DNA of 64,000 nt from assembly GCA_944377415.1 (NCBI GenBank), contig CALWEW010000001.1, forward strand, positions 35,604 to 99,603, given 5' to 3'. The position numbers were made by a program, and so were the translations under genes. The notes below the pieces were generated by a model. The model was not told the origin of the DNA and did not search any database. It saw only the letters and a program-made list of their open reading frames with translations. Shown here piece after piece: positions 48,508 through 48,584 of the stretch; within the stretch, counting starts at the first letter, position 1, and every line of letters begins with the position of its first letter. This DNA is from an uncultured Clostridia bacterium. GTDB taxonomy: Bacteria > Bacillota > Clostridia > Christensenellales > UBA1242.

Positions 48508-48584
48508 CATGGTGTGGCGTAGTTTGGTAGCGCACTAGGTTAGGGACTTAGGGGTCGCGGGTTCAAATCCCGCCACCATGACCA
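48508..48584 (+). tRNA. tRNA-Pro with anticodon AGG (A34)
   Basis: CATGGTG-TG-GCGT-AGTTTGGTA-GCGC-A-CTAGG-TTAGGGA-CTTAG-GGGTC-GCGGG-TTCAAAT-CCCGC-CACCATG-A-CCA; C1-G72, A73 and G37 are typical of Pro. Confidence 0.93.

What the first reader, a model, noticed from the sequence alone, without database searches (positions are those of the whole stretch)
48508..48584. tRNA-Pro with an A34 (AGG) anticodon and its own promoter and terminator
The cloverleaf is intact, with Pro identity features (C1-G72, A73, G35-G36, G37), but the anticodon is AGG. Bacteria normally decode Pro with UGG, GGG and CGG. Canonical bacterial TadA makes I34 only in tRNA-Arg(ACG), and other A34 tRNAs are known from only a few lineages. 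A near-consensus TTTACA-17-TATAAT promoter and a terminator suggest it is expressed. Either this lineage has a TadA with broadened specificity (I34-Pro, as in eukaryotes) or it uses unmodified A34 wobble. CCT codons were common in the segments I translated by hand; this was not quantified.
Basis: partly seen in the sequence, partly recalled or inferred. Interest (0 to 1): 0.75.

Follow-up and report, generated by a model that had tools for sequence, protein, structure and literature searches.

The report
Conserved proline tRNA with A34 anticodon
A small-genome gut Clostridia bacterium carries a genuine, conserved proline tRNA whose anticodon starts with A, which is rare in bacteria; it goes together with use of the proline codon CCC, and whether the A is edited to inosine could not be tested here.

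Summary
Window 48508-48584 (+) is a canonical tRNA-Pro with anticodon AGG, with a near-consensus promoter and an intrinsic terminator.

It is not an assembly error. Seven species of the genus keep A34, with compensatory stem changes and unrelated flanks. These species form one clade on a ribosomal-protein tree.

The genome (1.26 Mb, 96% complete) has three A34 tRNAs: Arg-ACG, Leu-AAG and Pro-AGG. It has no Pro-GGG and a single TadA.

Functional signal: in 25 orthologous ribosomal-protein genes, CCC makes up 4-19% of Pro codons in AGG-bearing species and 1-2% in AGG-lacking congeners (odds ratio 11.9; other codon boxes 1.2-3.0). CCU stays near 48% in both groups.

No TadA residue tracks the tRNA, and Leu-AAG predates it.

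Published experiments found tRNA-Pro(AGG) unedited by E. coli and Salmonella TadA, yet able to read CCC. I therefore favour an unmodified A34 that reads CCU and CCC (about 0.55) over I34 (about 0.3).

The type is rare but recurrent: at least 116 other species, in 21 sequence clusters.

Verdict: a new member of a known kind.

The parts
48456..48484 (+). Predicted sigma-70-type promoter, TTTACA-17 nt-TATAAT with a TG extension. The -10 element ends 24 nt before tRNA base 1.
   Evidence: 11 of 12 matches; 5 promoter-like sites found against 2.3 expected in shuffles. Sequence read. Prediction only; no RNA data.
48508..48584 (+). tRNA-Pro(AGG) gene, 77 nt, with encoded CCA. The anticodon is 48542-48544 and A34 is base 48542.
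   Evidence: Conserved in seven species of the genus, with 6 compensatory pairs and no broken pairs.
48596..48621 (+). Intrinsic terminator: 7-bp stem ATCTGGC/GCCAGAT, 4-nt loop, then a T run. It starts 12 nt after the CCA end.
   Evidence: sequence.
48403..48431 (+). Terminator-like hairpin of the upstream FGGY-family kinase gene (46922-48394). It separates that transcript from the tRNA promoter, so the tRNA looks monocistronic.
51723..51809 (+). tRNA-Leu(CAA), a loosely syntenic neighbour. It lies 0.4-1.2 kb downstream of Pro(AGG) in G001 and G011. trpS and the HAD hydrolase gene are neighbours in G016 and G001.

Best explanation
This is a working elongator tRNA-Pro. It does the job that tRNA-Pro(GGG) does in most bacteria: it reads the pyrimidine-ending codons CCU and CCC.

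It is transcribed alone from its own promoter, trimmed by RNase P, and already carries an encoded CCA. ProRS charges it through G35, G36, G72 and A73.

I infer that A34 stays largely unmodified. It would pair with U by Watson-Crick geometry. It would pair with C by the A(+)-C wobble proposed for the Salmonella proL207 mutant. [quoted passage not shown]

tRNA-Pro(UGG) and tRNA-Pro(CGG) cover CCA and CCG.

The gene arose once, at the base of a subclade of this genus, most likely as a duplicate of the lineage's tRNA-Pro(CGG) with a C34-to-A change. It has been kept since then.

Shown here: the gene is real, it is conserved, it replaces G34, it goes together with CCC use, and TadA does not co-vary with it. 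Inferred: that it is expressed, that A34 is unmodified, and the pairing geometry.
For: 1. Canonical tRNA with Pro identity elements.

2. A34 is invariant in 7 species of the genus, whose ribosomal proteins are 82-91% identical to G000's. Their flanks do not align, and 6 stem pairs show compensatory changes with none broken.

3. The AGG-bearing species form one clade (support 0.99) on a tree of 25 ribosomal proteins.

4. G000 has no Pro(GGG) among its 41 tRNAs. In 41 relatives, a scan for the Pro loop YU-RGG-GA found only A34 versions.

5. In 25 orthologous ribosomal-protein genes, CCC is 0.19, 0.09, 0.11, 0.04 and 0.14 of Pro codons in AGG-bearing species. It is 0.02, 0.01, 0.01, 0.02 and 0.01 in AGG-lacking congeners, which have only Pro(UGG). 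Pooled counts are 77/672 against 7/650, odds ratio 11.9. The odds ratios for C-ending codons in seven other boxes are 1.2-3.0.

6. In G000's highly expressed genes, CCY rises to 0.66 from 0.50 genome-wide. The Arg and Leu boxes, which also have A34 tRNAs, rise in the same way.

7. In favour of an unmodified A34:
- There is a single TadA, and no residue tracks the tRNA.
- The Pro loop keeps the Pro-family default U32. In contrast, Leu(AAG) has shifted at positions 32 and 38 to match the Arg(ACG) loop.
- All 116 Pro(AGG) genes in other species also keep U32.
- Salmonella proL G34A is unmodified and reads CCC (PMC3711424; PMC11066159).
- An orthogonal tRNA(AGG) in E. coli shows no inosine and decodes CCU:CCC at 56:44.
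- E. coli proL-AGG is detected unmodified at wild-type level (bioRxiv 10.64898/2026.05.15.725136).
- The S. pyogenes TadA consensus YUAMGRA does not include G35.
- The ratio C/(C+U) in G000 ribosomal-protein genes is 0.28 for Pro, against 0.63 for Arg and 0.40 for Leu.
Against: - There are no RNA data.
- This TadA probably already accepts both C35 and A35 (Arg and Leu). Base 35 makes only one hydrogen bond in the S. aureus TadA-RNA structure. G35 might therefore be tolerated without any change in the protein.
- The Pro loop already matches the Arg loop at positions 33, 34, 36, 37 and 38.
- The CCC contrast rests on a single evolutionary event in this genus. AGG-bearing genomes also use somewhat more C-ending codons in general.
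- Bulk codon usage from 20-40 kb samples gives only a weak difference, with exceptions: G002 has CCC at 0.03 and G007 at 0.16.
- I34 would read CCC equally well, so the codon data cannot separate the two states.
Confidence: 0.55

Rival explanations
1. TadA deaminates A34 wholly or partly to inosine. The lineage would then have three I34 tRNAs (Arg, Leu, Pro), a step towards the eukaryotic pattern. tRNA-Pro(IGG) would read CCU and CCC, and CCA weakly.
For: - TadA is present and canonical: 151.7 bits to NF008113, and E=2e-51 to 6e-44 against B. subtilis and S. aureus TadA structures.
- The genome already carries Leu(AAG), whose loop mimics the Arg(ACG) loop. That tRNA type is I34 in O. oeni and streptococci, so this TadA probably has relaxed reading of position 35.
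- The Pro loop matches the Arg loop at 5 of 7 positions, including G36, G37 and A38.
- The G34 isoacceptor is absent, as in the Arg box.
- Pro(AGG) occurs together with Pro(CGG), mirroring the ICG + CCG arrangement.
- CCC use rises.
Against: - No TadA column co-varies with presence of the tRNA.
- Three independent studies found Pro(AGG) unedited by enterobacterial TadA.
- The Leu-capable S. pyogenes TadA edits UAMG contexts, not UAGG.
- In O. oeni, only two of the four A34 tRNAs are edited.
- U32 is kept in every natural Pro(AGG) examined, with no shift towards C32.
- The C-over-U preference is lower in the Pro box than in the Arg and Leu boxes.
Confidence: 0.3
2. The gene is an inert or nearly neutral passenger: a mutated duplicate of tRNA-Pro(CGG) that is poorly expressed or barely used. 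On this view, the CCC difference between clades reflects general compositional drift.
For: - Pro(UGG) alone is enough for congeners, which use CCU at about 50% without any AGG tRNA.
- AGG-bearing genomes use more C-ending codons in several other boxes too.
- The CCC contrast is a single phylogenetic event.
- G34A changes in proL are close to neutral in the laboratory.
Against: - The tRNA is strictly conserved, with compensatory substitutions, while its flanks have diverged beyond alignment.
- The gene has a near-consensus promoter and a terminator.
- The Pro-specific odds ratio of 11.9 far exceeds the 1.2-3.0 seen in other boxes. After normalising to the other boxes, the CCC index separates all 5 AGG-bearing genomes (0.42-0.86) from all 5 AGG-lacking ones (0.07-0.20).
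- The same tRNA type has been kept in large clades elsewhere.
Confidence: 0.07
3. Base 48542 is a sequencing or assembly error, or comes from a contaminating contig, and the true anticodon is GGG or UGG.
For: The genome is a 52-contig assembly. I could not inspect reads.
Against: The same A34 occurs in six other independently assembled species of the genus, in two further families of the order, and in at least 116 other species. The gene lies inside a 117-kb contig between housekeeping genes.
Confidence: 0.01

Closest known systems
Laboratory tRNA-Pro(AGG): Salmonella proL207 (Chen et al. 2002, as described in PMC3711424 and PMC11066159) and E. coli proL G34A (Raval et al. 2026, bioRxiv 10.64898/2026.05.15.725136)
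   Same: A bacterial tRNA-Pro backbone with the loop UU-AGG-GA. In both cases no Pro(GGG) remains, and CCC is still decoded. In those strains A34 is unmodified, the tRNA is present at wild-type level, and fitness is near normal.
   Different: Those are engineered or selected G34-to-A mutants of proL. This gene is natural, conserved at clade level, has its own promoter, and most likely derives from a Pro(CGG) paralogue. Its modification state is unknown.
tRNA-Leu(AAG) edited to IAG in Lactobacillales (Oenococcus oeni, Streptococcus pyogenes, S. mutans; PMC11472039, PMC13249217)
   Same: A non-Arg A34 tRNA in a four-codon box that replaces the G34 isoacceptor. It is conserved across clades of Bacillota and is linked to shifts in synonymous codon use.
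   Different: For that tRNA, I34 has been shown and TadA has been shown to have adapted. Here the codon box is Pro and position 35 is G, which lies outside the known UAMG consensus. No TadA change tracks the tRNA, and editing is untested.
Naturally unmodified A34 tRNAs: Mycoplasma capricolum tRNA-Thr(AGU); O. oeni tRNA-Thr(AGU) and tRNA-Ser(AGA) (PMC3711424, PMC8072771)
   Same: Genomically encoded A34 in a four-codon box. It is left unedited even though a TadA is present (O. oeni), and it reads U- and C-ending codons.
   Different: The amino acid box is different. Those tRNAs have U36 or A36, which clearly fall outside TadA's requirement for G36. Pro(AGG) has G36, so it is a closer call.
Eukaryotic cytosolic tRNA-Pro(AGG), edited to IGG by ADAT2/ADAT3
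   Same: Same anticodon and same replacement of the G34 isoacceptor. From my own knowledge, the human loop is UUAGGGU.
   Different: The editing enzyme there is a heterodimer with relaxed sequence requirements. This genome has only a homodimer-type bacterial TadA.
Bacterial tRNA-Pro(GGG) (proL)
   Same: The inferred role is the same, namely reading CCC and CCU, with the same loop context (U32, U33, G37, A38).
   Different: Position 34 is A, not G. No Pro(GGG) is present in this genome.

Membership tests
Bacterial elongator tRNA-Pro | Cloverleaf with canonical D, anticodon and T arms that scores as a tRNA | tested here: met
   ARAGORN. Rfam RF00005 at 62.4 bits against a gathering score of 29. 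The consensus fold has 23 pairs, none broken in 7 sequences.
Bacterial elongator tRNA-Pro | Pro identity elements G35, G36, G72 and A73 (E. coli-type ProRS; from my own knowledge), plus G37 for m1G | tested here: met
   Read from the sequence. Relatives G003 and G031 carry U1-A72 instead, so G72 may not be required in this order.
Bacterial elongator tRNA-Pro | Purifying selection on structure across species | tested here: met
   Six pairs show changes on both sides and A34 is invariant, while the flanks do not align.
Bacterial elongator tRNA-Pro | Transcribed, processed and aminoacylated | not testable with these tools
TadA substrate (I34 tRNA) | A34 is encoded, a tadA gene is present, and the G34 isoacceptor is absent | tested here: met
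TadA substrate (I34 tRNA) | Anticodon loop fits a known TadA recognition consensus (E. coli YUACGAA; S. pyogenes YUAMGRA) | tested here: not met
   The loop UUAGGGA has G at position 35, and both consensus motifs exclude G there. The specificity of this lineage's own TadA is unknown.
TadA substrate (I34 tRNA) | TadA co-evolves with the new substrate | tested here: inconclusive
   No alignment column separates 6 AGG-bearing TadAs from 9 AGG-lacking ones. An already permissive enzyme would need no change.
TadA substrate (I34 tRNA) | A-to-G signature at position 34 in cDNA but not in DNA | not testable with these tools
Naturally unmodified A34 decoder of a four-codon box | Reads the C-ending codon as well as the U-ending codon | tested here: inconclusive
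   The evidence is indirect. CCC is used about 10 times more in ribosomal-protein genes of AGG-bearing species. This fits reading of CCC, but I34 would give the same result.
Naturally unmodified A34 decoder of a four-codon box | A34 remains adenosine in the mature tRNA | not testable with these tools
   No RNA data. I infer it from published results on enterobacterial TadA.

The most novel reading that the evidence does not exclude
The single homodimer-type TadA of this Clostridia lineage edits three different tRNAs: Arg-ACG, Leu-AAG and Pro-AGG. That would be a third I34 decoder in a bacterium and the first with G35. It would show that bacterial TadA can move towards ADAT-like breadth with no visible change in the protein. 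It would also imply that the many Bacteroidota and Lachnospiraceae carrying Pro(AGG) decode proline through inosine.
Probability: 0.3. Interest if true: 0.7.

Novelty: new member of a known kind. Interest (0 to 1): 0.45.

Why it matters
Unmodified A-starting anticodons are described as nearly absent from bacteria. A 2026 study calls their absence from four-codon boxes a paradox, because engineered versions, including proL-AGG, are neutral or beneficial in E. coli.

This locus is a natural counterpart of those engineered tRNAs. It offers:
- a Pro(AGG) gene kept across a clade;
- sister species that lack it and avoid CCC almost completely in ribosomal-protein genes;
- at least 116 further species that carry the same type, some of them cultured (Chryseotalea sanaruensis, Dawidia soli).

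Two questions become directly testable. Is natural Pro(AGG) edited? Does gaining it free up the CCC codon?

If it is edited, it extends bacterial I34 beyond Arg and Leu. If it is not, it is a natural, stable, unmodified A34 decoder outside the Mollicutes.

Tried and rejected
- **Papers not held.** The Rafels-Ybern 2018 and 2019 papers, which give the main census of bacterial A34 tRNAs, are not in the library. I used secondary descriptions and the Raval 2026 census.
- **Bulk codon usage.** Samples of 20-40 kb per genome gave no clear CCU shift and only a noisy CCC trend. Orthologous ribosomal-protein genes gave the clear result.
- **TadA residues.** I looked for residues specific to AGG-bearing genomes and found none.
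- **Second deaminase.** I looked for a second TadA-like deaminase in G000 and found none. The only other hit is one dCMP-deaminase-like ORF on C1, outside the window.
- **Organism name.** A sequence check showed this was wrong. Only G002 = JAFUJK01 ('Clostridia bacterium', roe deer rectum) and G004 = CASEHF01 ('uncultured Christensenella sp.') are confirmed.
- **Lateral transfer into G003.** I suspected this because its tRNA is nearly identical to G000's while its TadA is only 64% identical. The ribosomal-protein tree places G003 at the base of the AGG-bearing clade, so shared ancestry is enough to explain it.
- **'No Pro(GGG) anywhere in the order'.** This was too strong. The pattern scan misses atypical loops, and G026 has a Pro(GGG) with the loop AUGGGGU.
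- **Mobile-element origin.** The neighbours are an FGGY-family kinase, trpS and a HAD hydrolase gene. Synteny with trpS, the HAD gene and tRNA-Leu(CAA) is partly kept in relatives.
- **Other RNA families.** An Rfam scan of 47500-49500 at E up to 1 found no family other than the tRNA, apart from a sub-threshold sRNA match.

Full report
**1. The observation**

ARAGORN finds four tRNA genes in the window. One is tRNA-Pro(agg) at 48508-48584 on the plus strand. Rfam's tRNA model matches it full length at 62.4 bits (gathering score 29, E=1.2e-12).

The sequence reads CAUGGUG-UG-GCGU-AGUUUGGUA-GCGC-A-CUAGG-[UU AGG GA]-CUUAG-GGGUC-GCGGG-UUCAAAU-CCCGC-CACCAUG-A-CCA. This gives C1-G72, A73, G35, G36, G37, an encoded CCA, and A34 at base 48542.

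The motif scan finds TTTACA-17-TATAAT (11 of 12 matches, with a TG extension) at 48456-48484. It also finds a 7-bp hairpin followed by a T run at 48596-48613. A separate terminator-like hairpin for the upstream gene lies at 48403-48423. The gene therefore looks monocistronic.

The neighbours are housekeeping genes: a GlpA-like FAD oxidoreductase, an HTH regulator, an FGGY-family kinase, trpS and a HAD hydrolase gene.

**2. The genome**

The assembly is 1.26 Mb in 52 contigs, 37% G+C and 96% complete.

Two species of the same genus match public records: 'Clostridia bacterium' from roe deer rectum, and 'uncultured Christensenella sp.'. The organism is thus an uncultured gut Clostridia with a reduced genome.

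Whole-genome ARAGORN gives 41 tRNAs:
- Three have A34: Pro(AGG), Leu(AAG) and Arg(ACG).
- The Pro set is AGG, CGG and UGG.
- There is no Pro(GGG) and no Leu(GAG).

There is one TadA, at 151.7 bits against NCBIfam NF008113. It is a canonical relative of the solved TadA structures. tblastn and a zinc-motif scan find no second copy.

**3. Not an error, and under selection**

A search of 41 relatives finds the same gene, with AGG, in seven species of the genus. It also finds it in two genomes of other families in the order.

In the genus-level alignment the flanks are unalignable, while the tRNA is conserved and A34 is invariant. With the two outgroup copies and the Pro(CGG) paralogue added, 6 of 23 pairs show compensatory double changes and none is broken.

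On a tree of 25 concatenated ribosomal proteins (3,982 columns), the AGG-bearing species form one clade with support 0.99. Their ribosomal proteins are 82-91% identical to G000's. One origin, or one retention, explains the distribution within the genus.

Congeners outside that clade have only Pro(UGG). One example is G006, which is 97% complete in 3 contigs.

**4. Origin**

On a tree of Pro tRNAs, the genus's AGG genes nest among the genus's own CGG genes. The AGG genes of G031 and G034 group with the CGG genes of those same genomes.

The trees are built from short sequences, so resolution is limited. Even so, the pattern suggests repeated, independent origins by duplication of Pro(CGG) followed by a C34-to-A change.

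A scan for the loop YU-RGG-GA in 41 relatives found only A34 versions. One atypical Pro(GGG), with the loop AUGGGGU, exists in G026.

**5. How common it is**

- ARAGORN confirms tRNA-Pro(AGG) in 116 of those 120 loci. All 116 have U32.
- The 116 genes fall into 21 clusters at 90% identity. The largest are a Cytophagales/Flavobacteriia cluster (40) and a Bacteroidales cluster (29). Several others come from Lachnospiraceae, 'Eubacterium', Christensenellales, Succinivibrionaceae and Lactobacillaceae.
- Within this order, the strict pattern finds 5 of 401 genomes. It misses G031 and G034, whose variable region differs. All these counts are therefore lower bounds.

The type is rare but recurrent, and it is kept across clades.

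For comparison, the Raval et al. 2026 preprint counts 695 non-ACG A34 genes in 4,047 GtRNAdb bacteria. It singles out Leu-AAG and Thr-AGT as the retained types.

**6. Does it work?**

Genome-wide, Pro codons are CCU 0.35, CCC 0.15, CCA 0.29 and CCG 0.21.

In about 10,000 codons of ribosomal-protein, elongation-factor, chaperone, RNA-polymerase and glycolytic genes, CCU rises to 0.49 and CCY to 0.66. The same shift towards Y-ending codons is seen in the Arg and Leu boxes, but not in the Thr or Ser boxes.

The sharper test uses 25 orthologous ribosomal-protein genes in five AGG-bearing and five AGG-lacking congeners:

| Measure | AGG-bearing | AGG-lacking |
|---|---|---|
| CCC fraction of Pro codons, per genome | 0.19, 0.09, 0.11, 0.04, 0.14 | 0.02, 0.01, 0.01, 0.02, 0.01 |
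| Pooled CCC count | 77/672 | 7/650 |
| Pooled CCU fraction | 0.47 | 0.50 |
| Pro C/(C+U) divided by the mean for Thr, Ala, Val, Gly | 0.42-0.86 | 0.07-0.20 |

The pooled CCC odds ratio is 11.9 (Fisher p=2e-16). The matching odds ratios for C-ending codons in seven other boxes are 1.2-3.0.

So species with only Pro(UGG) use CCU freely but avoid CCC almost completely in these genes. Species with Pro(AGG) use CCC at about the level expected from their other boxes. This is what a CCC-reading tRNA would produce.

Caveats:
- This is one evolutionary contrast.
- Pro(CGG) was gained or kept together with AGG.
- Bulk samples are noisier.

**7. I34 or A34?**

Loop comparison:
- Arg(ACG) has CUACGGA.
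- Leu(AAG) has CUAAGGA, whereas the genome's other Leu tRNAs have UU-NAG-GU. Leu(AAG) has therefore converged on the Arg loop at positions 32 and 38. That is expected for a TadA substrate, and this tRNA type is I34 in O. oeni and streptococci.
- Pro(AGG) has UUAGGGA, the same as its CGG and UGG isoacceptors apart from position 34. It matches the Arg loop at 5 of 7 positions and differs at 32 and 35.

Leu(AAG) is present in every genus member examined, including those that lack AGG. Any broadening of TadA therefore came before Pro(AGG). No TadA column distinguishes the two groups.

Published experiments:
- Salmonella proL G34A carries an unmodified A34 and reads CCC almost as well as G34 does.
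- An orthogonal tRNA(AGG) in E. coli shows no inosine, yet decodes CCU:CCC at 56:44.
- E. coli proL-AGG is detected unmodified at wild-type level.
- The Leu-capable S. pyogenes TadA edits YUAMGRA sites, with M = A or C.
- In O. oeni, only Arg and Leu of the four A34 tRNAs are edited.

On the other side, base 35 makes a single hydrogen bond in the S. aureus TadA-RNA complex. A TadA that accepts both C35 and A35 could therefore accept G35.

My weights are:
- unmodified A34: about 0.55
- full or partial I34: about 0.3
- inert passenger: about 0.07
- artefact: about 0.01

**8. Comparison with what is known**

In function, the gene behaves like proL (tRNA-Pro-GGG). It is the natural counterpart of the laboratory proL G34A mutants. 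In kind, it belongs with the non-Arg A34 tRNAs of bacteria: Leu-AAG, Thr-AGU and Ser-AGA.

It meets every sequence-level criterion for a tRNA-Pro. It does not meet one tested criterion for a TadA substrate, namely fit to the loop consensus at position 35. The decisive criterion, the cDNA signature, could not be tested.

**9. Earlier notes of this scan (leads only)**

- A follow-up on this genome's Leu(AAG) reached a compatible reading (e1-2147209). I confirmed independently that Leu(AAG) is genus-wide.
- A follow-up on another Clostridia genus described a genus-wide Pro(AGG) and judged it a known oddity (e1-5199209). I did not test that case.
- A first-reader note describes a Pro(AGG) with U1-A72 next to a Leu(AAG) (e1-3948356). 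That resembles G031 of this order.

**10. Verdict**

The finding is real, conserved and functionally meaningful, and it is an instructive natural example. It is not unique to this lineage and is not a new kind of system.

Noticed in passing
G003 (L003 1500-1576) and G031 (L018 1494-1570), relatives of the window's genome: Their tRNA-Pro(AGG) genes start with U1-A72 instead of C1-G72, a compensatory double change. G031's Pro(CGG) also has U1-A72. G72 is an identity element for E. coli-type ProRS, so ProRS in this order may not read position 72.
   Followed up: partly
G031:C1:166797-166823 and 173012-173038: This genome, from another family of the same order, carries two copies of tRNA-Pro(AGG) about 6 kb apart. 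It also has a Leu(AAG).
   Followed up: no
G026:C2:147868-147961 (L253): This is a tRNA-Pro(GGG) with an atypical anticodon loop, A32-U33-GGG-G37-U38. It was the only G34 Pro tRNA I saw in the order, and standard loop patterns miss it.
   Followed up: no
window 48620-48990: The 370-nt spacer between the tRNA terminator and trpS contains several G+C-rich hairpins, for example GCGCGTTTTACGCGC at 48656-48670, inside an A+T-rich genome. Firmicutes trpS genes often have a T-box leader, but no T-box or other Rfam family matched at E up to 1.
   Followed up: partly
whole genome G000 (tRNA set; codon usage): The Ala and Val boxes appear to be served by a single U34 tRNA each (UGC, UAC). In highly expressed genes, Arg CGA and CGG are almost absent (0.02 and 0.00) and CGC is at least as common as CGU, despite 37% G+C. 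Arg is the box with the strongest preference for C-ending codons.
   Followed up: partly
window 53969-59506: Another first-stage note (e1-5243129) flags a 5.5-kb integrative element next to tRNA-Arg(CCU) at 59463-59537. It lies 5 kb from the Pro tRNA and does not include it. I did not examine it.
   Followed up: no
census loci L032-L151: In about 30 of the 116 loci, tRNA-Pro(AGG) lies within a few hundred bases of tRNA-Pro(CGG). In several Lachnospiraceae the cluster is Arg(CCG)-Pro(AGG)-Thr(CGU)-Pro(CGG). In Cytophagales it often lies next to Ala(GGC). AGG thus tends to occupy the slot of a regular isoacceptor inside tRNA clusters.
   Followed up: no
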